Below, in pieces: positions 4,457 to 64,000 of a stretch of 64,000 nucleotides of DNA. Under the pieces are notes generated by a model, which made no database searches, was not told where the DNA came from, and was given only the letters and a program-made list of their open reading frames with translations. The DNA is from Candidatus Lloydbacteria bacterium RIFCSPHIGHO2_02_FULL_50_18. Its GTDB lineage: Bacteria; Patescibacteriota; Minisyncoccia; Phycocordibacterales; UBA6899. Every line of letters begins with the position of its first letter. Position 1 is the first letter of the stretch. The translations under genes were made by a program, and so were the position numbers. The DNA lies in NCBI GenBank assembly GCA_001821395.1, contig MHLM01000012.1:32001-96000 (forward strand), read 5' to 3'.

Positions 4457-5566
4457 TTGGTCAAATGTTTCATGAATAGTCAACCAACCGAAAAGATCCG
4501 TGTACTTATTGCAGATGATTCTTTTTTTATACGCACCTATCTTCAGGAGGTATTGAAAGCAAGTGAATCGATCGAAGTCGTTGGGCTTGCTTCATCGGGA
4601 ATCGAAGTAGTTGAGTTGGCACGTAAATTAAAACCCCATGTGATCACGATGGATTATCACATGCCGGGAAAAAATGGAATTGAAGCAACCGCAGAGATTA
4701 TGCGTGATGATCACCCGCTTCCGGCAATCATCATGCTTTCTGCTTTCGAGGGGGATGATGGCGAACATGTTCGAAAGACCCTTTTGTCCACCGGTGCCCA
4801 TGTGATCGAAAAACCGTCGGGAGAAGTGTCTCTTGATATAGAAAAGATTGCACGCACTATCGTACAACGGATCGAGGAGGTCGGGTGGACCGAAGTACGC
4901 ATGCGACACTCCTTTGCCCGCATGAAACACACTAGGGAACGAAGCCTAAATGGGCAGGATCGCACACTGCCATTTTCGGGGGTTGTCGTGATCGGTGCGT
5001 CTACCGGTGGGCCATCCTTGGTTGAAGGTTTGATCAAGTCGTTTGATCAGTATCACGGAATTTCGATCGTGATAGTTCAGCACATGTCTGCATATTTTAC
5101 TTCGCTGTTTGCTGAGCGGCTCGGACACGTTACCTCATTCCGTGTTTATGAAGCAAAGAGCGGAGACGTTCTTCTTCCGAACGATGCCCTCGTTGTCCCC
5201 GGTGGTTCTTTTTTGTTACCTACTTCGCTACCGGGTTCCCCGATGTGCAGCTTTGATATTATCGAAAGTGAAACTCATGCACCGGAGGCGCAGATCGACA
5301 ATTCGATGCGCGCGATAGCCGCTTGTTACCAGGGACCAATCGCCGGCGTATTACTTTCCGGAATGGGAAATGACGGAGCCGTCGGACTGCACGCACTGCG
5401 ATTGCGTGGAGGACTTTGTCTTGCGCAGGATCCGGAAACAGCACCGGTGCGTTCTATGCCGGCGCATGCGATTGATAGCGGTGAGGCAGTCGGAGTGCGG
5501 ATAGAGGATATCCCCGAACGTATCATGAGTCATTTTCGTCGACCATCACCGTCACGGCTTGCGTGA
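4457..5566 (+). CDS. cheB: Protein-glutamate methylesterase CheB (receiver plus methylesterase domains)
   Basis: N-terminal receiver domain followed by a CheB methylesterase domain (GASTGGP, HM..F, GG motifs). Confidence 0.85.
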   Translation: MVKCFMNSQPTEKIRVLIADDSFFIRTYLQEVLKASESIEVVGLASSGIEVVELARKLKPHVITMDYHMPGKNGIEATAEIMRDDHPLPAIIMLSAFEGDDGEHVRKTLLSTGAHVIEKPSGEVSLDIEKIARTIVQRIEEVGWTEVRMRHSFARMKHTRERSLNGQDRTLPFSGVVVIGASTGGPSLVEGLIKSFDQYHGISIVIVQHMSAYFTSLFAERLGHVTSFRVYEAKSGDVLLPNDALVVPGGSFLLPTSLPGSPMCSFDIIESETHAPEAQIDNSMRAIAACYQGPIAGVLLSGMGNDGAVGLHALRLRGGLCLAQDPETAPVRSMPAHAIDSGEAVGVRIEDIPERIMSHFRRPSPSRLA

Positions 5567-54250: not shown

Positions 54251-54667
54251 ATGCCAACGATCAACCAACTCGTAAAAAGCAGCAGAAAGCAGGTCGCCCA
54301 AAAATCGAAGGCGATTGCGATGGGTCGCGGTTTCAACTCGATCCAGAATCGACCGATCTTTTACAATTCCCCGTTTAAGCGTGGTGTTTGTACGAAGGTG
54401 ACGACCATGACTCCCCGCAAGCCGAACTCCGCTATCCGAAAGATCGCACGTGTACGCCTCACGAATGGCATGGAGGTCACTGCCTACATCCCGGGAATCG
54501 GACACAAGCTCCAGGAGCACTCAGTGGTCATCGTGCGCGGCGGCCGCGTGAAGGACCTTGGTCTTCGCTATCATATCGTTCGCGGACGACTCGATGCTAC
54601 CGGTGTGGACAAGCGCCAGCAGGGCCGCTCGTTGTACGGTGCAAAGCGTGCAGAGGTGAAGAAGTAG
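54251..54667 (+). CDS. rpsL: 30S ribosomal protein S12
   Basis: MPTINQLV N-terminus and [16 protein letters not shown] motif; carries an insertion of about 14 aa relative to the typical 124 aa. Confidence 0.95.
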
Positions 54668-54751: not shown

Positions 54752-55222
54752 ATGCGCGGACCAGTAAAGAATCGTAATATCCGAAAGCCGGATGCAAAGT
54801 ATCATTCAGTAGAAGTTTCGACACTCATCAACTACGTGATGTGGGAAGGAAAAAAGACCATCGCAACGACGGTCGTTTATGATGCACTTGAGCTCATCAA
54901 AACTCAGCTAAAAGTAGAGGACCCTATCGAAGTCTACAAGGAAGCACTGCGCAACGCCGGACCGATCATGGAAATTCGTTCACGCCGCGTCGGTGGCGCC
55001 AATTATCAGGTTCCCCGTGAGGTCCGACCCGAGCGCCGCATCTTCCTCGCGCTGCGCTGGATCATCGATGCCGCTCGCTCAAAGAAGGGAGCCGGAATGG
55101 CCAAGAAGCTTGCCGATGAGATCATCTCCGCTTCAAAGAACGAGGGTGAAGCTATCAAGAAACGTGAGAATGTGCACAAGATGGCGGAAGCGAACAAAGC
55201 CTTCGCGCACTTCGCCTGGTAA
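54752..55222 (+). CDS. rpsG: 30S ribosomal protein S7
   Basis: Collinear S7 sequence at the usual position after rpsL. Confidence 0.95.
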   Translation: MRGPVKNRNIRKPDAKYHSVEVSTLINYVMWEGKKTIATTVVYDALELIKTQLKVEDPIEVYKEALRNAGPIMEIRSRRVGGANYQVPREVRPERRIFLALRWIIDAARSKKGAGMAKKLADEIISASKNEGEAIKKRENVHKMAEANKAFAHFAW

Positions 55223-55497
55223 AAATTTTGTAATTCTGGCGCCCTTCGCGCTTGACTTTGAACGCGAGTCCGACGAACGTACTATGAGGAGTACGTCCGC
55301 ACGGACATCGCATTCTTGCCGCGCGCGAATTGCATCCAGAATAACAAAATTTTTCGTATCGGCTGCAAAATGCAGCAAATAAAATTCCCTCGAAAGGGGA
55401 ATTTTAATTTTACTAAATCGCGTTGCGGACGTAGTGTTTTATGTTATGGTGACGGAAGATCGTTCAAATTTAATGGAGGAGTGCGTTATGTCCAAGA

Positions 55498-56075
55498 ATT
55501 CTTGTGTCACCGTCATCTACCCGAAATCAATTCCAGTGAATAATGGAGCGGAGAATTGTTTTCTCCTTGGGCCCTGCACAAACGCGCCGCCATATCACGA
55601 GGATGTTATTGATATTTTTGCCCGACTCGCGAGAGAAGACAAAAAAATGATCTCCTTGCGCATCAATTGCCCGAAGCGAGAAGGGGAGATGGTCCGTGCG
55701 CTTGATGTTGTTGCTCCTCCCGCAGAGATCCATCATACCTATGCCCGTCAGCGGGAATGGGAGTTCGAGACTCAGGAGAGTGCCGCATTTTCTGCCGGTC
55801 TCTTGTTCTGTTTCGTTAAGCAGGGGAATAATGCTGTTCCCGAGAAGGTCTACGGAGCGATCACCCAAGTGGAGTTTGGCTATTGGCTTGCGCGGGCATC
55901 GGTCGATAGGCGCATACGCATCGCGTATTACTCTGATGGGATATACAACCACCAACTCCGCGTGCTCCTCCATGACATTGAGCGTCTTGCACCATGGCTT
56001 CTCCCGATGCATACTTCGTTTGAGTCATTGTGTGCGCAGTCGCTCGCATGGGCCAAGCAAGGCCCCTCAAAATAG
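55498..56075 (+). CDS. Hypothetical protein (192 aa) inside the str operon
   Basis: GGAGGA ribosome-binding site before ATG 55498; terminator at 56093-56117; no recognizable domain. Confidence 0.5.
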
Positions 56076-56092
56076 TCCATCAAGCAAGCAAT

Positions 56093-56117
56093 ACGAACCG
56101 ATCCTCGGTTCGTTTTT
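56093..56117 (+). terminator. Rho-independent terminator (ACGAACCGATCCTCGGTTCG followed by TTTTT)
   Basis: Perfect hairpin and T-run. Confidence 0.75.
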
Positions 56118-56192
56118 CATTGCAATTTGTGATTCTTAGCCATATTTTCCCGCTTTTTTGTCAAGGTTAAACCTTGACATTGATATATAAAG

Positions 56193-56225
56193 AAAAAACC
56201 TCCGATGAGTCGGAGGTATTTTTAC
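56193..56225. terminator. Bidirectional terminator (AAAAAACCTCCGATGAGTCGGAGGTATTTTT)
   Basis: Perfect hairpin flanked by A and T runs, downstream of the minus-strand gene pair. Confidence 0.75.
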
Positions 56226-56434
56226 GTTTGTTTGCTTGGAACTTTTTCTACTCGGTCGCGAGAGTAGTGCCCGTCAAGCCCGGGAATGTCCGTTGAAGTG
56301 CATACGTTGCTTCCATCACAGTGCCGGACAATGTAGATATTGCCGACCGTGAGCGGTAACGTACGCGATGTTTGCCCCGTTGGCTTCGAAAGCAATTTGA
56401 CTCGGTCATTCGAGCGCAGTGTTTGATCAGACAT
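56222..56434 (-). CDS. Hypothetical small protein (70 aa), downstream member of an overlapping gene pair
   Basis: ATG overlaps the stop of the 116-aa gene (CATGTCTGA) and has a GGAGGA ribosome-binding site 9 nt upstream. Confidence 0.5.
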   Translation of the reverse strand: MSDQTLRSNDRVKLLSKPTGQTSRTLPLTVGNIYIVRHCDGSNVCTSTDIPGLDGHYSRDRVEKVPSKQT

Positions 56435-56777
56435 GAGCATCCTCCATAAATAGATCCGTTTCCGGGGTGATCCCAATACTTTTGATGATCTGCCCGTTGT
56501 CACTCCGTTCGTTCAGGGTGAAACATACCGTTGCAGTACTGTATCCCACGTGACACTTGCTCAGTTTTCCGAGTAATTTGCCTTGCGCGTAGGCGCTGAC
56601 TGTTTTACCGGTGAGCGTGCAAAGTGCAGTGAGATATTGGTCGTTGCGTGCATGGCCCAAGGCTACCGCACTTAGCTCTTTTGCCAACGGATGTCCCATT
56701 TTATTGAGTACATTGACGGCATTTCGGTATTGTTCCTCACGGTACTTGTGGAGTACGTAGGGAATGGGGAATTGCAT
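56427..56777 (-). CDS. Hypothetical protein (116 aa), upstream member of an overlapping gene pair
   Basis: Strong ribosome-binding site AAGGAGAGGCAA before the ATG; no recognizable domain. Confidence 0.5.
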   Translation of the reverse strand: MQFPIPYVLHKYREEQYRNAVNVLNKMGHPLAKELSAVALGHARNDQYLTALCTLTGKTVSAYAQGKLLGKLSKCHVGYSTATVCFTLNERSDNGQIIKSIGITPETDLFMEDAHV

Positions 56778-56856
56778 TTGCCTCTCCTTGTTTTGATTTT
56801 GAACTCCTGTGTAAAACTATACATAAGATATTGTTCTTGTAAAGATTCTTTGCAGG

Positions 56857-56885
56857 TTGCTCAAAAGGGGAGTTTTCTATATAGT
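56857..56885 (+). promoter_or_regulatory. Putative sigma70 promoter (TTGCTC, 17-bp spacer, TATAGT) for fusA, followed by a leader hairpin at about 56895-56925
   Basis: Hexamers with a 17-bp spacer; a terminator-like hairpin AACGCCATTAAGTGCCCTTTGTGGCGTTTTT lies in the leader. Confidence 0.4.
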
Positions 56886-56975
56886 AACGCCATTAAGTGC
56901 CCTTTGTGGCGTTTTTGTTTACGCGGCAGTTCGCGTTACGGGGAAGATCATTTATTCGTTTTTTATTCACTTTTT

Positions 56976-59123
<2,148 letters not shown>

Positions 59124-59194: not shown

Positions 59195-59746
59195 ATGTAC
59201 GATGATGAAGATGATGACGACGAAGACGAGGGTGAAATAGGGCTTGATGCAGAAACAGTGCGACGCGAAGAGGCCGAGGTCGTGCAGGGGAAAGCATCCC
59301 GTGCTTTTTATGATGACCTCGCAAAAAAAGAAGATGATCGTCACAATGCGATGCGTCTTGACATGCAACAGCGCGCACTTGCCGCGGGTGAACTCCGTCA
59401 AAAATTACGCAATAAAGAAACCGAGCTGCACGCGCTCCAACTCAAGATCACTATTGAGGAAGACCGTATCGATTATGAAAAAAAGAAAGCGTACCGTCTT
59501 GGAGGAGGTGAATCTATCGCTACGGGAGATGGAGCAACACGATCTGTCCCGATCCCCATACTCTCAAAAGATGTTGACGCTAAGGATGCTGATCAAGAAT
59601 TTTCGGTAGAACACGCTGAAATACACATCAAGCAATTGCAGAGTGAAAAATTGGAGCTTGAAAAGGTGTTGAGCGGAATGAAGGAGCATTTGAATGAAGA
59701 AGAGCGTGCGTTGTCACAACTTCAGCATCAACTCGTTCGCATGTAA
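59195..59746 (+). CDS. Hypothetical acidic coiled-coil protein (183 aa; N-terminal poly-Asp/Glu)
   Basis: Intact ORF with biased composition and predicted coiled coil. Confidence 0.45.
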   Translation: MYDDEDDDDEDEGEIGLDAETVRREEAEVVQGKASRAFYDDLAKKEDDRHNAMRLDMQQRALAAGELRQKLRNKETELHALQLKITIEEDRIDYEKKKAYRLGGGESIATGDGATRSVPIPILSKDVDAKDADQEFSVEHAEIHIKQLQSEKLELEKVLSGMKEHLNEEERALSQLQHQLVRM

Positions 59747-59777
59747 TGGCGTTCTTCTTTTTGTTGCATGATATAAT

Positions 59778-61043
59778 TTGGTCATGCCCGAAGATGAAGC
59801 CAACCAATCCTCAGCCGCATCCGGGAGTCTAGGCGGTCTTCCCGATAGTGTAGCTCCTTCGGCCAGCGTGGAACCAAAAATAATTTCATCACCAGCACCA
59901 ATGGTCTCCTCTGTTGTGTTACCCGTGGCGAATCCTATCGATCCTGCGGCGACAGAGAGTTCCGCAAATAATGAGAAGCATCTGCTACTCATTGCGCATC
60001 TATTGAATCAGGTTCGCATCAAAAAGTCTGAGATAGGTGCTGCTCGCGATAAGATGGGTCAATTGGGGCGCGAGAGCGCGCAATTGCAAACCGAAATGCA
60101 CCATATTGAGCAAGACGTGCGCCGTGTTGAGGGAGAGTTGTACCAGGTCAAGCTTGATGCCAATAAGCAAGAGAGCACGTCAAAAGGAGAGCAGGTTGGC
60201 ATGAACGATAAAGATACGGAACTGAAAAGGCGGAGCGATGGCATCGCGAGGCTCGAGCGAGATATCGATAAATTGAAGCAAGCGATCGCCGAGCGAGAGC
60301 AACGAATAGCTGAGATAAAAACTGAAAATAGTTCACTTGCGAAATCAAAGGAGGACCTCAGGCGAAAGATCGAGCTCGAACTTGCAGGCATCAGGGTCAA
60401 GGCCGAAAAAGCACGCGAGAAGGAAACCGCGATACGGCGCATAAAACAAGATCATGAACGGAAAAAGATGGAGATCTTTCACAAGAAGAGTGCGCCTGTT
60501 GACCGCTTACACTCAGCTCTAGATAACCAGCGGGAGGTTTCCCGACTGGAGTCCGACCTGCGGCATATTGAGCAGGAACTGTCGCGCACAGAGGGCGAGC
60601 TCCGTCTTATCGAAACGAGTGAGCACCAAGAAGAGAATACATCAAGGGTGGATCAGGGTGAGATGCGCAATAGGGATATGGTGATCTATAAAACAGGAGA
60701 TGAGGTTGTTAAGCTCGGCAGAGAGATAGGGCGGCTGAACGTTGAGATTGCCGAGAAGGAAAGTGAGATAGCAAAGCTGGGCGGTGAAGGTCAGGAGTTG
60801 AGAAAGGGAAGAGAGGAGTTACGGCGACGGTATGAACTCGAGCATTTTAGTGCAAACTCAGGATTTACGCTTGCGCATGAGAAAGAGCTTCAGCTCTCTC
60901 GTTTTAAGCAGGGATTTCTTTTGAAGGAGGATAAGATCAAAAAGAACGAACATGCGCAAATACAACTACGCCATGACCTCATCTCCCTTGAGCAAGATCT
61001 GGCAACGGTTGAAGCAGAATTGCGTCATGCTAACAGTGCATAG
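59778..61043 (+). CDS. Hypothetical long coiled-coil protein (421 aa)
   Basis: Heptad-rich sequence with Glu/Arg/Lys/Leu repeats; SMC-like or tropomyosin-like composition. Confidence 0.45.
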   Translation: MVMPEDEANQSSAASGSLGGLPDSVAPSASVEPKIISSPAPMVSSVVLPVANPIDPAATESSANNEKHLLLIAHLLNQVRIKKSEIGAARDKMGQLGRESAQLQTEMHHIEQDVRRVEGELYQVKLDANKQESTSKGEQVGMNDKDTELKRRSDGIARLERDIDKLKQAIAEREQRIAEIKTENSSLAKSKEDLRRKIELELAGIRVKAEKAREKETAIRRIKQDHERKKMEIFHKKSAPVDRLHSALDNQREVSRLESDLRHIEQELSRTEGELRLIETSEHQEENTSRVDQGEMRNRDMVIYKTGDEVVKLGREIGRLNVEIAEKESEIAKLGGEGQELRKGREELRRRYELEHFSANSGFTLAHEKELQLSRFKQGFLLKEDKIKKNEHAQIQLRHDLISLEQDLATVEAELRHANSA

Positions 61044-61153
61044 CTCTTGATGTGTAACACACTCTGCCGTCACGGGAGACGAACTCTTGCGGGGAAATCT
61101 AAGGACAACGTCAGGTGATGATATGGTTGTGCTTCGATAGTTTATTGTTCAGT

Positions 61154-61296
61154 AAAAGGTATTAAACCCCAGGGCAAGCCCTGGGCTCGCGATGGGCTCG
61201 CAAAGCCTCGCGCGAGTCTAGGGCTGTGCCGCAGGGTATTAAACCTTTTTTAGCTCTCCTCGGCACCACGGAGAGTACTTCATTTTTTTATGTTCA
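61154..61296 (-). repeat. Repeat element B, the inverted copy of 19764-19899
   Basis: Reverse complement is about 97% identical to element A; a partial terminal copy lies at 61381-61397. Confidence 0.85.
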
Positions 61297-61343
61297 GAAT
61301 ATTATCTTAACCTATGCTATAGCATAGGTTAAGATAATATTCT
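61296..61343. repeat. 48-bp perfect palindrome (AGAATATTATCTTAACCTATGCTA | TAGCATAGGTTAAGATAATATTCT)
   Basis: Checked base by base: 24-nt arms with no spacer. Confidence 0.9.
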
Positions 61344-61494
61344 TGATGTAGATATACATGTGTACACTTTTTTAATCGCACCACGAGAGTACTTCCATTC
61401 TTCTAAGGTGGAGTACCACCAAGAAGAATTGGTCGCTCGATGAAATCGCTCTACATCGGCAATAAAAAAACGAACCCGAGGGTTCGTTTTGTCT

Positions 61495-62235
61495 TCATTC
61501 AGTGTGCTGGCGCATTTTTCGCGCTTCGGCAACAAGTCGCTCGAGCGTGTCCGTTGCGATATGGTTTACCATCTCCGATTCAGTCATTGTGGTCGTATCG
61601 ATGAGTTGGATCTGCGGATATTTCGGCGAAAGTTCTTCATGCATCGTCCGATAGCGGTCCACGAGTTTGCGGATCGACGCGGGGTTCGATGTCTCACCGA
61701 GCTTGTCCGAGAGTGCGATACGTTGTCCGCGGCGCATTGCTTCTTCAGGTTCACATACCACGACATAGGAGGCGATGATACGGTCTACCCAAAAACGCAG
61801 CAGGAAGAATTGCTGGATGAGTTCACGCTCTTCACCGGAGAGCAGTCCCTTGTCTTGCCAGTACATCATCCACGCGTACGGGTCAAAGATCGAACGATCA
61901 AAGATCACCACATCGTAAGCATGACCATGTGTGTAGTCGATGACCATCTCGAGCGCATAGAGTGCGGTGCGGATGTTGTATTCCGGAGTCGTACGCGGAA
62001 TATGTCCGATTACTTCGGCGCCTTCTTGCGGAATGTGCACGCGCAATCCTCTGCGTTTCAAGAATTTATAAAGTTCCTTGATGCAGGTCGTTTTTCCCGA
62101 ATCCGGAGAACCGGTGAATTCGATAAGGAATGGGCGTGGCAAGAATGTACCTCCGTAACGCACGTCCGTTCGCAGGTATCCGTGCAGCATGTCCGCCATG
62201 AGTTCGAGGCGGGCAATGTCGATGGTTTTTGACAT
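61495..62235 (-). CDS. Deoxynucleoside-kinase-like P-loop kinase
   Basis: Walker A FTGSPDSGKTT and a DRS motif (VVIFDRSIFD) typical of the dNK/dCK/TMPK fold; followed by a terminator on the minus strand at about 61460-61493. Confidence 0.5.
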   Translation of the reverse strand: MSKTIDIARLELMADMLHGYLRTDVRYGGTFLPRPFLIEFTGSPDSGKTTCIKELYKFLKRRGLRVHIPQEGAEVIGHIPRTTPEYNIRTALYALEMVIDYTHGHAYDVVIFDRSIFDPYAWMMYWQDKGLLSGEERELIQQFFLLRFWVDRIIASYVVVCEPEEAMRRGQRIALSDKLGETSNPASIRKLVDRYRTMHEELSPKYPQIQLIDTTTMTESEMVNHIATDTLERLVAEARKMRQHTE

Positions 62236-62288
62236 GAAATACTCTCTTTCTTTTGAAAAAGTACCAAGCTGTGTTTTACTATACCTGA

Positions 62289-62882
62289 ATGATGCTCAAA
62301 AATAATACTATACAAACAGGGCCCCGTATTGTGGGCTTTGACATGGATGGGGTGATCATCAACCATGCTCCGAATAAGATCATGCTTGCAAAGCGTTATG
62401 CCGTAACACTGCGTCCCGAGGAGACGCACTCGGAACTCCTGCCCGGCAAATTCCCCCGCGAGGAGTATCTTGCCTTCCAGAATATGCTTTATGGTAATTC
62501 GGATTTTGCGCTTTCGGCACCGCTCATGCTCGGTGCATTCGATGTTTTGCACGAGATGAAAGATCGTGGCATCCCCTTCGTGCTGATATCCCGCCGCAGG
62601 GAACCCGAAAATGCCATCAGACTTCTTAAGGAGCGCAAATTGTGGGGCGACTTTTTTACCGAAGCAAATGCTTTTTTTGTCGGCACACCGGAAGAAAAGA
62701 ATGTCGCAAGCGTACGAGAGGGCGTCACTCATTTCTTTGATGATGAGCGTAAGGTGTTGCGCGCCATACCGGACGTGAAAAGGAGATTTCTCTTTGATTC
62801 ACTTCGCCAATTCAATGATGAAGATGAGTTTGAGCGTGTATTTGATTGGAAAATGCTCCGTCAGATCGTTTTTGAGGAATAG
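62289..62882 (+). CDS. HAD-superfamily 5'(3')-deoxyribonucleotidase-like hydrolase
   Basis: N-terminal FDMDGVI (DxDGV motif I), a K in the middle region and a late DD (FFDDE). Confidence 0.5.
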   Translation: MMLKNNTIQTGPRIVGFDMDGVIINHAPNKIMLAKRYAVTLRPEETHSELLPGKFPREEYLAFQNMLYGNSDFALSAPLMLGAFDVLHEMKDRGIPFVLISRRREPENAIRLLKERKLWGDFFTEANAFFVGTPEEKNVASVREGVTHFFDDERKVLRAIPDVKRRFLFDSLRQFNDEDEFERVFDWKMLRQIVFEE

Positions 62883-62956
62883 GACAAAACGCGGAAGGTG
62901 CATAAGTCGCTTTGAAGGCTGCGGGGGTCTGATACGATGAAGATGAGGAACCTCTT

Positions 62957-63544
62957 ATGACCATTATGCACGAAGAAGGAATAGTCCTTGGGTTTGATCT
63001 CGACGGGGTCATCATCGACCACACGCAAAATAAAATGCTGATCGCTTCGCGCTACGGTATTGAATTAAGTCCAAAAGATACTCACGCCGAGCACATGGGT
63101 ACGCATTTTACTCCTGAACTCTATCGCGTGATCAAATCCCAGCTTTATGATTCAACTGCGCTCGCGCTCGAGGCTCCTTTGATGGCGGGAGCTTTCGCGA
63201 CATTGGCAAAACTCCGCGAACAAGGGATCCCATATTTCCTCGTTTCGCTTCAGAAGAATCCCATGCATGCTGCGCATTTGCTCGAAGAGCGGGGTTTGTG
63301 GGGTACGTACTTCACTCCCGAGAATACGTTATTCGCACGGAATGCTGATGAAAAGCATGCACTCGCGGCGCAGATCGGTGTCACCCACTTCATTGATGAT
63401 GAACCAAATATCCTCGACGTGATGATCTCGATCCCGAACCGTATATTATTTGATGCGCGCGGACTGTTTCCCGAAAAAACTGACTATTGCCATGTAGAGA
63501 GCTGGAGTGAGCTTGCTGAAACACTGGGAATGGCGAATCGTTAG
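62957..63544 (+). CDS. HAD-superfamily 5'(3')-deoxyribonucleotidase-like hydrolase, a tandem paralog of 62289-62882
   Basis: FDLDGVIIDH motif I and FIDDE; collinear similarity of roughly 40% to the upstream gene. Confidence 0.5.
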   Translation: MTIMHEEGIVLGFDLDGVIIDHTQNKMLIASRYGIELSPKDTHAEHMGTHFTPELYRVIKSQLYDSTALALEAPLMAGAFATLAKLREQGIPYFLVSLQKNPMHAAHLLEERGLWGTYFTPENTLFARNADEKHALAAQIGVTHFIDDEPNILDVMISIPNRILFDARGLFPEKTDYCHVESWSELAETLGMANR

Positions 63545-63654
63545 CCTCGTACCAGTATCTCAGGTTCATTTTTGCGCTTTGTGGATTTTATGTTATGTTT
63601 TTTCATACGCTGTGAATACCGCGCGTAAGTTCTTTTGAATAAAGGAGTTCGAGT

Positions 63655-63966
63655 ATGACTGAGGCATTGCCTTCTTGTCGGGACATGCTGTGTGACGCGT
63701 TTGTCCGTGAATTTGATGAATTGCCGACAGATTCGATCTGGCTGGTAAGCAAGATAGGTTCCGAATTCGCGCTGTCCTCCGCGACGTCGATCGCTTTTAA
63801 GGAGTGGCTTCGACAACATCAGGGATTTTTCAGTAAATTTCCCCGCAGATATTGTGACTGGAAACGGAGCGATGTGCTGCGGTCGTCAAAGATCATCTCC
63901 GCTTACCGATCGACTTTTTACGTATACATCCTGCCCGATGAGCTAAAGACTTTTCCGGAGTCATGA
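63655..63966 (+). CDS. Hypothetical protein (103 aa)
   Basis: AAGGAG ribosome-binding site 7 nt upstream of the ATG. Confidence 0.45.
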   Translation: MTEALPSCRDMLCDAFVREFDELPTDSIWLVSKIGSEFALSSATSIAFKEWLRQHQGFFSKFPRRYCDWKRSDVLRSSKIISAYRSTFYVYILPDELKTFPES

Positions 63967-64000
63967 GCATTCCCCGTACCTTTTTGTGTTTCAACACCGA

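What the first reader, a model, noticed from the sequence alone, without database searches (positions are those of the whole stretch)
55223..56975. 1.75-kb insertion splitting the conserved rpsL-rpsG-fusA operon: a 192-aa unknown gene plus an opposite-strand overlapping 116/70-aa gene pair
S7 and EF-G genes are almost universally adjacent. Here they are separated by three genes of unknown function, each with strong ribosome-binding sites and dedicated terminators. Two of them (116 aa and 70 aa) are antisense to the operon, with start and stop overlapping (CATGTCTGA), an architecture typical of toxin-antitoxin or other two-component addiction or defence modules. The insert is delimited by palindromes (ACGTACTATGAGGAGTACGT; TCAAGGTTAAACCTTGA). 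fusA has acquired its own promoter and a leader hairpin. An accessory cassette lodged inside one of the most conserved operons in bacteria is the strongest candidate in this window for an undescribed system.
Basis: partly seen in the sequence, partly recalled or inferred. Interest (0 to 1): 0.65.

Follow-up and report, generated by a model that had tools for sequence, protein, structure and literature searches.

The report
Variable gene slot between rpsG and fusA
The three unknown genes between the ribosomal protein S7 gene and the EF-G gene are real, but this gap commonly gains and loses genes in this bacterial group, and nothing tested supports a toxin-antitoxin or defence system.

Summary
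The window is from a Candidatus Lloydbacteria genome (CPR/Paceibacteria, Rifle groundwater). The 1,753-bp rpsG-fusA spacer holds three real genes under purifying selection: ORF195 (+), and ORF116/ORF70 (-) with an 8-nt start/stop overlap.

The premise that S7 and EF-G genes are adjacent fails in this class. In 68 Paceibacteria species the median rpsG-fusA gap is about 665 bp, 28 have 1 kb or more, and the contents are heterogeneous. A close relative with an empty site (174 bp) already has an rpsG terminator plus the same fusA promoter and leader hairpin, so the two units were uncoupled before any insertion.

ORF70 models as a KOW/SH3-like small beta-barrel from an undescribed family (66 clusters, no Pfam). 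Members also lie in plasmid-like arrays of small genes.

ORF116 evolves fast and is absent beside a conserved ORF70 in four genomes. That argues against an obligate toxin-antitoxin pair. No toxin, antitoxin or defence homology was found.

The pair unit does look recently exchanged with one other lineage (dS 0.3-0.4 against 1.4-2.4 in the flanks).

Overall: accessory genes in a permissive hotspot, of modest interest.

The parts
54752..55222 (+). rpsG (ribosomal protein S7), left flank
   Evidence: Pfam Ribosomal_S7, E 5.5e-56.
55221..55354 (+). Conserved long stem-loop starting at the rpsG stop codon.
   Evidence: 19-nt arms, 95% complementary (I1). RNAalifold on four genomes gives 35 pairs, 17 with compensatory changes. 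No Rfam match.
55380..55406 (+). Terminator-like hairpin plus T-run between rpsG and ORF195
   Evidence: Relatives have a different hairpin plus T-run at the same place.
55488..56075 (+). ORF195: divergent nucleoside 2-deoxyribosyltransferase-like (NDT/TIR/LOG superfamily) protein
   Evidence: - 23 homologues at 53-100% identity.
- AF2 pLDDT 90.4.
- PF15891 sub-threshold in 5 of 21 members, best E 4.4e-5.
- G123, E129 and W133 are invariant, and T126 and G131 nearly so, in the motif YGAITQVEFGYW.
56093..56113 (+). Terminator-like hairpin after ORF195
   Evidence: 9-bp stem plus TTTTT.
56159..56179 (.). Perfect palindrome TGTCAAGGTT-A-AACCTTGACA between the two convergent units
   Evidence: Single copy in the 64 kb, with 0 expected by chance. 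The same TGTCAAGG..CCTTGACA lies at the same position in L018 and L107, with different inner bases.
56198..56217 (.). Bidirectional terminator (A-run, hairpin, T-run) ending the ORF116/ORF70 unit
   Evidence: both strands. In L021, L106, L018 and L107 a GC-rich run, hairpin-like in most, lies after the same A-run.
56222..56434 (-). ORF70: small KOW/SH3-like beta-barrel protein, member of an undescribed family
   Evidence: - Alignment of 13 sequences has 20 invariant columns.
- AF2 pLDDT 73.
- Profile search finds 66 cluster representatives.
- No Pfam, PHROG or PADLOC family.
56427..56777 (-). ORF116: fast-evolving upstream partner of ORF70, fold unknown
   Evidence: - 3 close homologues.
- Divergent homologues upstream of ORF70 in L106, L107, L018 and L017, at 28-45% identity, with invariant P6 Y7 H10 R44 Q47 G57 C85 F86.
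- No family hit.
56816..56843 (-). Promoter-like site for ORF116/ORF70 (TTTACA-16-TATAGT)
   Evidence: 10 of 12 match. The TTGTAAAG motif recurs in all compared loci, and ACTATACAT is kept exactly in L021, L106 and L018 but is degenerate in L017 and L107.
56857..56885 (+). fusA promoter (TTGCTC-17-TATAGT), back to back with the pair's promoter
   Evidence: Read from the sequence; the promoter scan did not report it. Conserved in nine related loci, including the empty-site relative L025.
56895..56924 (+). fusA leader hairpin plus T-run (attenuator-like)
   Evidence: The GCC..GGC core is kept in 9 of 9 sequences, with one compensatory change.
56976..59123 (+). fusA (EF-G), right flank
   Evidence: Pfam GTP_EFTU, EFG_III, EFG_IV and EFG_C.

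Best explanation
The spacer is not one inserted system. It is a permissive, gene-turnover slot between two transcription units that were already independent.

In this lineage rpsL-rpsG ends in its own structured 3' element and terminator. fusA has its own promoter and attenuator-like leader, even where nothing lies between them. Genes can therefore come and go here without polar damage, and across Paceibacteria they do.

In the Lloydbacteria clade of this window, two unrelated resident units occupy the slot.

1. ORF195, transcribed in the rpsG direction from its own start region, is a divergent member of the nucleoside-2-deoxyribosyltransferase-like superfamily. It most likely cleaves or transfers the N-glycosidic bond of a nucleoside or nucleotide, using the invariant Glu129 in the G-x-x-T-x-x-E-x-G motif. 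The role in nucleotide salvage is inferred, not shown.

2. ORF116-ORF70 is a translationally coupled two-gene unit transcribed divergently from the fusA promoter. ORF70 is a conserved KOW/SH3-like small beta-barrel, most likely a binding module for RNA, the ribosome or a protein. ORF116 is a rapidly diverging, dispensable accessory partner. Both functions are inferred.

The pair unit can be exchanged between related lineages by recombination. The wider ORF70 family also occurs on plasmid-like elements.
For: Hotspot:
- rpsG-fusA gap across 68 species: median about 665 bp, 38 at 500 bp or more, 28 at 1 kb or more, 12 at 2 kb or more. The rpsL-rpsG median is 38 bp.
- Gap ORFs are heterogeneous: 69 of 85 are singletons.
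- The empty-site relative L025 (EF-G 92% identical, gap 174 bp) has an rpsG terminator plus the same fusA promoter and leader.

Independence of the units:
- ORF195 without the pair: L020.
- ORF70 (with or without ORF116) but no ORF195: L022, L106, L111.
- Extra genes lie between the units in L017, L104 and L107.

ORF195.

ORF70.

ORF116 is divergent but homologous, with the 8-nt overlap read directly in the window, L022, L018 and L107.

Not foreign in composition. No relatives on viral contigs.

Exchange: window against L022 gives dS 0.32-0.42 for the pair and 1.4-2.4 for rpsL, rpsG and fusA. Nucleotide identity is 88-90% over about 56300-56900, against about 80% in fusA.

Plasmid contexts: L113 (an array with ArdC-N) and the Azonexus plasmid NZ_CP151407.
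Against: - No biochemical function is shown for any of the three proteins.
- ORF195 itself gives no Pfam hit, and its relatives stay below the PF15891 gathering score (24.2 against 30 bits). Foldseek and sequence searches of the PDB found nothing significant.
- The ORF70 model is of only moderate confidence (pLDDT 73), and small barrels match many folds.
- ORF116 could not be modelled.
- ORF70 family genes sit divergent to fusA in many genomes, and a paralogue sits divergent to tuf in L115. This could reflect a functional link to translation-factor genes rather than mere permissiveness.
- The canonical order (fast-evolving first gene, conserved second gene, overlapping) does resemble type II toxin-antitoxin modules.
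Confidence: 0.6

Rival explanations
1. ORF116/ORF70 is a type II toxin-antitoxin or addiction module. ORF116 would be a labile, fast-evolving antitoxin and ORF70 a conserved toxin, co-translated from overlapping genes.
For: - 8-nt start/stop overlap seen in the window, L022, L018 and L107, with a shared promoter and terminator in six genomes.
- The upstream gene evolves much faster than the downstream one.
- The unit seems recently exchanged between two lineages.
- The wider ORF70 family occurs on plasmid-like elements.
- One weak ParD hit, E 0.2, which is not significant.
Against: - ORF70 is retained and well conserved (62-78% identity) without any ORF116-like gene in L104, L110, L111 and L112. 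A toxin without its antitoxin should not persist.
- No toxin, antitoxin or defence family hit for either family.
- Single copy, at the same locus throughout the clade.
Confidence: 0.1
2. The pair, or ORF70 alone, is functionally tied to translation factors. It could be a small KOW-like protein that binds the ribosome, EF-G or the fusA leader RNA, co-regulated with fusA through the back-to-back promoters.
For: - ORF70-family genes lie within about 170-250 bp of, and divergent to, fusA in eight genomes.
- A paralogue lies divergent to tuf in L115, a genome of the same clade (EF-Tu 95% identical).
- The divergent promoter region is highly conserved.
Against: - All fusA-adjacent cases may descend from one ancestral insertion, so synteny is not independent evidence.
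- L111 has ORF70 next to rpsG, 3.4 kb from fusA. L112 has it in an unrelated context, after a 422-aa membrane protein.
- Plasmid-borne family members have no such neighbours.
- Sequence matches to uL24, S17 and bL21 are insignificant, E 0.6-1.6.
Confidence: 0.15
3. All three genes form one conflict (defence or anti-defence) system. The NDT/TIR-like ORF195 would be a nucleotide-degrading effector, and the pair its sensor or regulator.
For: - The ORF70 family occurs in plasmid arrays of small genes, one next to ArdC-N.
Against: - ORF195 and the pair are convergent, separately terminated units, and each is present or absent independently of the other.
- No PADLOC hit for any of them.
- None has relatives on viral contigs.
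Confidence: 0.05

Closest known systems
Nucleoside 2-deoxyribosyltransferase-like family (Pfam PF15891 Nuc_deoxyri_tr2; PDB 4mcj, BDI_0649), within the NDT/TIR/LOG Rossmann-like superfamily
   Different: Scores are below the Pfam gathering threshold, and the window protein itself gives no hit. ORF195 has extra N-terminal strands and two C-terminal helices (195 aa against about 150). The family is restricted to a Lloydbacteria clade, and the substrate is unknown.
Type II toxin-antitoxin modules
   Same: Two small overlapping co-transcribed genes, with the first evolving faster than the second, forming a discrete and exchangeable unit.
   Different: No homology to any toxin or antitoxin family. 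The partners do not strictly co-occur. The module is single-copy at a fixed locus, and the presumed 'toxin' has a binding-barrel fold.
KOW/SH3-like small beta-barrel proteins (NusG/Spt5 KOW domains, uL24, OapB, PetP)
   Different: No Pfam KOW or any other family hit. It has its own signature: GDRVRLL..P.G..S..LPLTVGN.Y.V...DGSNV.T(S/T)TD...(Y/W).R.RV.
[quoted passage not shown]
   Same: A conserved hairpin plus T-run in a fusA 5' leader downstream of a dedicated promoter. The precedent is described in PMC2965389.
   Different: No sequence relation was shown and there is no Rfam match. Here fusA is a fully separate unit, with a divergent neighbouring promoter.
Arrays of small genes in plasmid establishment or leading regions (from memory: Samuel et al., Nature 2024)
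   Same: Distant ORF70-family members sit in long runs of 60-130-aa co-directional genes. One run is next to ArdC-N/MPTase (L113). Another follows TrfB-like and integrase genes on an Azonexus plasmid.
   Different: The window copy is chromosomal, in a CPR genome, in a two-gene unit. No anti-defence function is known for the family.

Membership tests
Type II toxin-antitoxin module | Two adjacent, co-transcribed small genes, often overlapping | tested here: met
   ATGTCTGA 8-nt overlap, seen also in L022, L018 and L107. One promoter-like site and one terminator serve both genes.
Type II toxin-antitoxin module | Homology of one partner to a known toxin superfamily | tested here: not met
   No Pfam, NCBIfam, PADLOC or PHROG hit for ORF70, ORF116 or their families. 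ORF70's fold is a KOW/SH3-like barrel.
Type II toxin-antitoxin module | Antitoxin with a recognisable DNA-binding domain (RHH, HTH, AbrB, Phd) | tested here: inconclusive
   Only ParD at E 0.2, in 1 of 7 members.
Type II toxin-antitoxin module | Strict co-occurrence of the two partners | tested here: not met
   ORF70 homologues lack an ORF116-like gene in L104, L110, L111 and L112 (HMM search).
Type II toxin-antitoxin module | Toxicity of one partner, neutralised by the other | not testable with these tools
   Needs expression experiments.
Known anti-phage defence systems (PADLOC) | Match of at least one component to a defence-system model | tested here: not met
   0 families for the three proteins, the 7 ORF116-family members and the 45 ORF70-family members.
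Nucleoside 2-deoxyribosyltransferase-like (PF15891 / NDT superfamily) | Three-layer alpha/beta/alpha NDT-type fold | tested here: met
Nucleoside 2-deoxyribosyltransferase-like (PF15891 / NDT superfamily) | Score above the Pfam gathering threshold | tested here: not met
   No hit for the window protein. The best relative scores 24.2 bits against a cut-off of 30, E 4.4e-5. Five of 21 members hit below threshold.
Nucleoside 2-deoxyribosyltransferase-like (PF15891 / NDT superfamily) | Conserved acidic catalytic residue at the start of the helix after the central strand (G-T-x-x-E-x-G type motif) | tested here: inconclusive
   G123, E129 and W133 are invariant, and T126 and G131 nearly invariant, in 21 sequences, at the start of helix 124-137 following strand 104-109. 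Equivalence to the NDT nucleophile is inferred from memory, not from a residue-level superposition.
Nucleoside 2-deoxyribosyltransferase-like (PF15891 / NDT superfamily) | N-glycosidic bond cleavage or transfer activity | not testable with these tools
   Needs an enzyme assay.
KOW domain (Pfam PF00467) | Sequence match to the KOW motif | tested here: not met
   No KOW hit in Pfam scans of 13 and 45 family members. The resemblance is at fold level only.
Mobile genetic element or prophage insertion | Integrase or transposase, flanking direct repeats, foreign composition, or viral relatives | tested here: not met
   - No such genes in the spacer.
- Only short, chance-level repeats.
- GC and GC3 equal the background.
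- No relatives on viral contigs.
- No phage-record relative of ORF70.

The most novel reading that the evidence does not exclude
ORF70 would define an undescribed family of about 70-aa KOW-like proteins shared by plasmid small-gene arrays and CPR chromosomes. In Lloydbacteria, members repeatedly sit head-to-head with translation GTPase genes (fusA, and tuf in L115). The family could be a new class of small ribosome- or RNA-binding modulators of translation or of translation-factor expression, with ORF116 as a lineage-specific specificity partner.
Probability: 0.12. Interest if true: 0.6.

Novelty: new member of a known kind. Interest (0 to 1): 0.3.

Why it matters
The result removes a false lead. 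A split rpsG-fusA junction is normal in Paceibacteria and should not be scored as an anomaly there.

It assigns a fold and a probable chemistry (a nucleoside or nucleotide N-glycosidic enzyme) to a lineage-conserved 'hypothetical' gene. CPR bacteria are generally described as depending on nucleotide salvage (general knowledge, not tested here), so this gene may bear on that.

It also flags a small-protein family without a Pfam entry that is shared by CPR chromosomes and plasmid-like elements. Finally, it shows that both junctions flanking fusA are permissive sites for gene turnover in reduced genomes.

Tried and rejected
- **Family scans.** Pfam, NCBIfam, PADLOC and PHROG scans of the three proteins gave nothing significant.
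- **Sequence profiles against the PDB.** No hit for ORF195. ORF70 and ORF116 gave only insignificant uL24, S17 and bL21 matches.
- **ORF116 structure.** The second job went to ORF70, so ORF116 remains unmodelled.
- **ORF116 against ORF70.** Profile-profile comparison shows they are unrelated.
- **L111 127-aa ORF.** It lies divergent to fusA and looked ORF116-like by eye, but scores E 3.9 against the ORF116 HMM, so it was rejected.
- **Viral contigs.** Scans with the ORF70 and ORF195 profiles and two distant family members found no relatives. Two alignment-based scans could not be run because no stretch was conserved enough.
- **Phage and plasmid records.** tblastn of ORF70 against phage records found nothing. 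tblastn against plasmid records gave one ORF70 hit, on an Azonexus plasmid, and none for ORF116 or ORF195.
- **Rfam.** Only two sub-threshold sRNA matches, over the terminator.
- **Other Paceibacteria.** HMM searches for the three families in the 80 other rpsG loci found none.
- **Literature.** Nothing on this locus or on split str operons in CPR.
- **Contig L005.** It joins an identical cassette to a 65%-identical rpsG. The break lies in a 45-nt stretch identical in both contigs at the rpsG 3' end, so it is probably an assembly chimera rather than a transfer.
Full report
**Source and observation.**
Exact-sequence look-ups place the window in Rifle aquifer groundwater metagenomes. NCBI names the proteins as hypothetical proteins of Candidatus Lloydbacteria bacterium RIFCSPHIGHO2_01_FULL. 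This is a CPR/Paceibacteria genome.

The ORF map and Pfam confirm rpsL (54251-54667), rpsG (54752-55222) and fusA (56976-59123). The 1,753-bp spacer holds ORF195 (55488-56075, +), ORF116 (56427-56777, -) and ORF70 (56222-56434, -). ORF70's ATG lies inside the last codons of ORF116 (ATGTCTGA).

**Are the three ORFs genes?**
Yes.
- ORF195 has 23 homologues at 53-100% identity, with 41 invariant columns.
- ORF70 has 11 database homologues plus copies in fetched loci, with 20 invariant columns among 13 sequences.
- ORF116 has three close homologues. Divergent homologues (28-45% identity) lie directly upstream of ORF70 in L106, L107, L018 and L017.
- Where synonymous sites are not saturated, dN/dS is 0.13-0.21.
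- GC and GC3 equal the genome background.

**Is a split rpsG-fusA junction unusual here?**
No. A scan of one genome per species with S7 returned 80 Paceibacteria loci. Among the 68 that carry both genes:
- the median gap is about 665 bp;
- 38 have 500 bp or more, 28 have 1 kb or more, and 12 have 2 kb or more (maximum 4.9 kb);
- the rpsL-rpsG median is 38 bp, and the fusA-tuf gaps are also large.

The 85 ORFs in these gaps are heterogeneous. Sixty-nine are singletons. Small groups include proteins I read by eye as ORF6N-like DNA-binding proteins, a nucleotidyltransferase and a GlmM-like mutase. None is related to the three families studied here. In the window's own genome, fusA and tuf are separated by about 6.5 kb carrying seven further unassigned genes.

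**Why the site is permissive.**
L025 is a close relative (EF-G 92% identical) with only 174 bp between the genes. It already has a terminator after rpsG, then a fusA promoter (TTGCTA-17-ATATAGT) and a leader hairpin with a T-run.

The same promoter (window: TTGCTC-17-TATAGT, 56857-56885) and leader hairpin (56895-56914 plus T-run) are conserved in nine related loci. So fusA did not acquire a promoter because of the insertion; the two units were already uncoupled. Attenuator-like elements between rpsG and fusA have precedents in streptococci and Pelagibacter (PMC2965389).

**Comparative anatomy in the Lloydbacteria clade.**
Eleven distinct genomes were compared, with S7 81-95% and EF-G 88-96% identical where present.

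| Genome (locus) | Content between rpsG and fusA |
|---|---|
| Window | ORF195, ORF116/ORF70 |
| L018 | ORF195, ORF116-like/ORF70 |
| L017 | two small ORFs, ORF195, a 142-aa gene, ORF116-like/ORF70 |
| L107 | ORF195, two extra genes, ORF116-like/ORF70 |
| L104 | ORF195, three extra genes, ORF70 alone |
| L110 | ORF195, ORF70 alone |
| L022/L109 and L106 | a 66-aa gene instead of ORF195, then the pair |
| L111 | ORF70 alone next to rpsG, then 3.4 kb of other genes before fusA |
| L020 | ORF195, then a 138-aa gene and nucleotide-metabolism genes; no fusA nearby |
| L112 | ORF70 homologue overlapping the end of a 422-aa membrane-protein gene, in an unrelated context |

Sources.

So ORF195 and ORF70 are recurrent residents of the slot, but they are independent of each other. 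ORF116 is dispensable.

**ORF195.**
- AlphaFold2 on the 21-sequence alignment gave pLDDT 90.4.
- Foldseek against the PDB was uninformative.
- Five of 21 family members hit PF15891 (Nuc_deoxyri_tr2) below threshold, best 24.2 bits and E 4.4e-5, over profile positions 3-94 of 105.

The (nearly) invariant motif Y122-G-A-I-T-Q-V-E129-F-G-Y-W133 starts the helix after the central strand. As I recall, that is where NDT enzymes carry their catalytic Glu. W91, E92 and Q96 are also invariant.

I infer a nucleoside or nucleotide N-glycosidase or transferase. A salvage role would fit the usual description of CPR bacteria as dependent on nucleotide salvage, which I did not test. It would also fit the dCMP deaminase and thymidylate kinase genes downstream in L020. 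No activity has been shown.

**ORF70 and ORF116.**
- A profile search of 1.84 billion cluster representatives found 66 relatives at E 1e-3 or better, and 29 at 1e-10 or better.
- A set of 45 of them has no Pfam, PHROG or PADLOC family.
- Two distant members lie in an array of small co-directional genes next to an ArdC-N/MPTase gene (L113). An unannotated one lies in a similar array after TrfB-like and integrase genes on an Azonexus plasmid.
- A paralogue lies divergent to tuf in L115, a genome of the same clade (EF-Tu 95% identical).
- ORF116 has no detectable relatives outside the clade, no family hit, and no relation to ORF70. It could not be modelled.

**Toxin-antitoxin or defence?**
The gene architecture fits, and so does the pattern of a fast-evolving first gene and a conserved second gene. 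Against it:
- no homology to toxin, antitoxin or defence families;
- four genomes keep a conserved ORF70 without ORF116;
- the locus is single-copy and fixed in the clade;
- the fold is a binding barrel.

ORF195 and the pair are convergent, separately terminated and independently distributed, so a three-gene system is unlikely.

**Evidence of exchange.**
Between the window and the GWA2_47_7 lineage (L021/L022), synonymous sites of rpsL, rpsG and fusA are saturated (pS 0.64-0.72, dS 1.4-2.4). ORF116 and ORF70 have dS of 0.32 and 0.42.

Nucleotide identity is 88-90% from about 56300 to 56900, against about 80% in fusA. It is not alignable to the left of about 56190. The pair unit, with its promoter and terminator, thus seems to have been exchanged between these co-occurring lineages more recently than their divergence. 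This supports 'accessory module' but does not indicate a function.

**Other elements.**
- The palindrome ACGTACTATGAGGAGTACGT is the tip of a 134-nt stem-loop beginning at the rpsG stop codon. It shows compensatory changes in four genomes and has no Rfam match.
- The palindrome TGTCAAGG..CCTTGACA (56159-56179) recurs at the same spot in L018 and L107, and is unique in the window. Its role is unknown.

**Verdict.**
This is a lineage-specific, variable set of accessory genes in a junction that is commonly open in Paceibacteria. It comprises one divergent NDT-like enzyme and one small KOW-like protein with a dispensable partner. Interest is modest. The most novel reading that survives is that the ORF70 family is an undescribed class of small binding proteins linked to translation-factor loci and to plasmid gene arrays.

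Noticed in passing
window 55221-55354 (+): A 134-nt extended stem-loop begins at the rpsG stop codon. Its outer 17-bp stem and apical hairpin are kept in L022, L020 and L111 with compensatory changes (35 predicted pairs, 17 compensated). There is no Rfam match. It could be a structured 3' UTR, an S7-binding element or a stabiliser.
   Followed up: partly
window 56159-56179: The perfect palindrome TGTCAAGGTT-A-AACCTTGACA is unique in the 64 kb. It is conserved at the same inter-unit position in L018 and L107, with co-varying inner bases. It may be a protein-binding operator or a recombination site; its function is unknown.
   Followed up: partly
window 59195-64000 and beyond (L001 1-7600): fusA and tuf are separated by about 6.5 kb carrying seven genes with no or weak Pfam hits (183, 419, 246, 197, 195, 103 and 167 aa; the 419-aa product looks coiled-coil by eye). 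The str operon is therefore broken at a second junction in this genome. In 25 of the 32 Paceibacteria loci where tuf lay within reach, the fusA-tuf gap is also 500 bp or more.
   Followed up: partly
L115 6001-6246 (GCA_043737875.1): An ORF70-family paralogue (81 aa) sits divergent to tuf-rpsJ-rplC in a genome of the same clade (EF-Tu 95% identical). This is a second head-to-head pairing of this family with a translation GTPase gene.
   Followed up: partly
L117 about 4980-5192 (Azonexus hydrophilus plasmid NZ_CP151407.1, 293517-293702) and L113 638-1024, 1747-2184: ORF70-family genes lie in long arrays of 60-130-aa co-directional hypothetical genes on plasmid-like DNA. The Azonexus copy is unannotated and follows TrfB-like and integrase genes. 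The L113 array has two copies and an ArdC-N/MPTase gene.
   Followed up: partly
L005 (ERZ4903070 k141_1560691), break near 1950-1990: This contig is 100% identical to the window cassette up to the 3' end of rpsG. It then switches to an rpsG/rpsL only 65-72% identical at the protein level. The break follows a 45-nt stretch identical in both contigs, so it is probably an assembly chimera, though a real recombinant is not excluded.
   Followed up: partly
window 55389-55416 and 56860-56887: A 28-nt direct repeat (75% identity: CTCGAAAGGGGAATTTTAATTTTACTAA and CTCAAAAGGGGAGTTTTCTATATAGTAA) links the region upstream of ORF195 with the fusA promoter. It could be a shared promoter or regulatory motif, or chance.
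   Followed up: no
L020 6620-7036 (-) and L112 6322-6756 (+): A 138-aa and a 144-aa protein share motifs by eye (HY(L/I)GED..W(M/L)R.P, LLAL..LS(F/Y)D...KSY). Each lies next to a member of this gene set: beside ORF195 in L020 and beside the ORF70 homologue in L112. This may be another recurrent resident of these variable slots.
   Followed up: no
L022 6643-6843 and L106 6474-6674: A 66-aa gene on the rpsG strand occupies the place of ORF195 in the two genomes that lack it. Its function is unknown.
   Followed up: no
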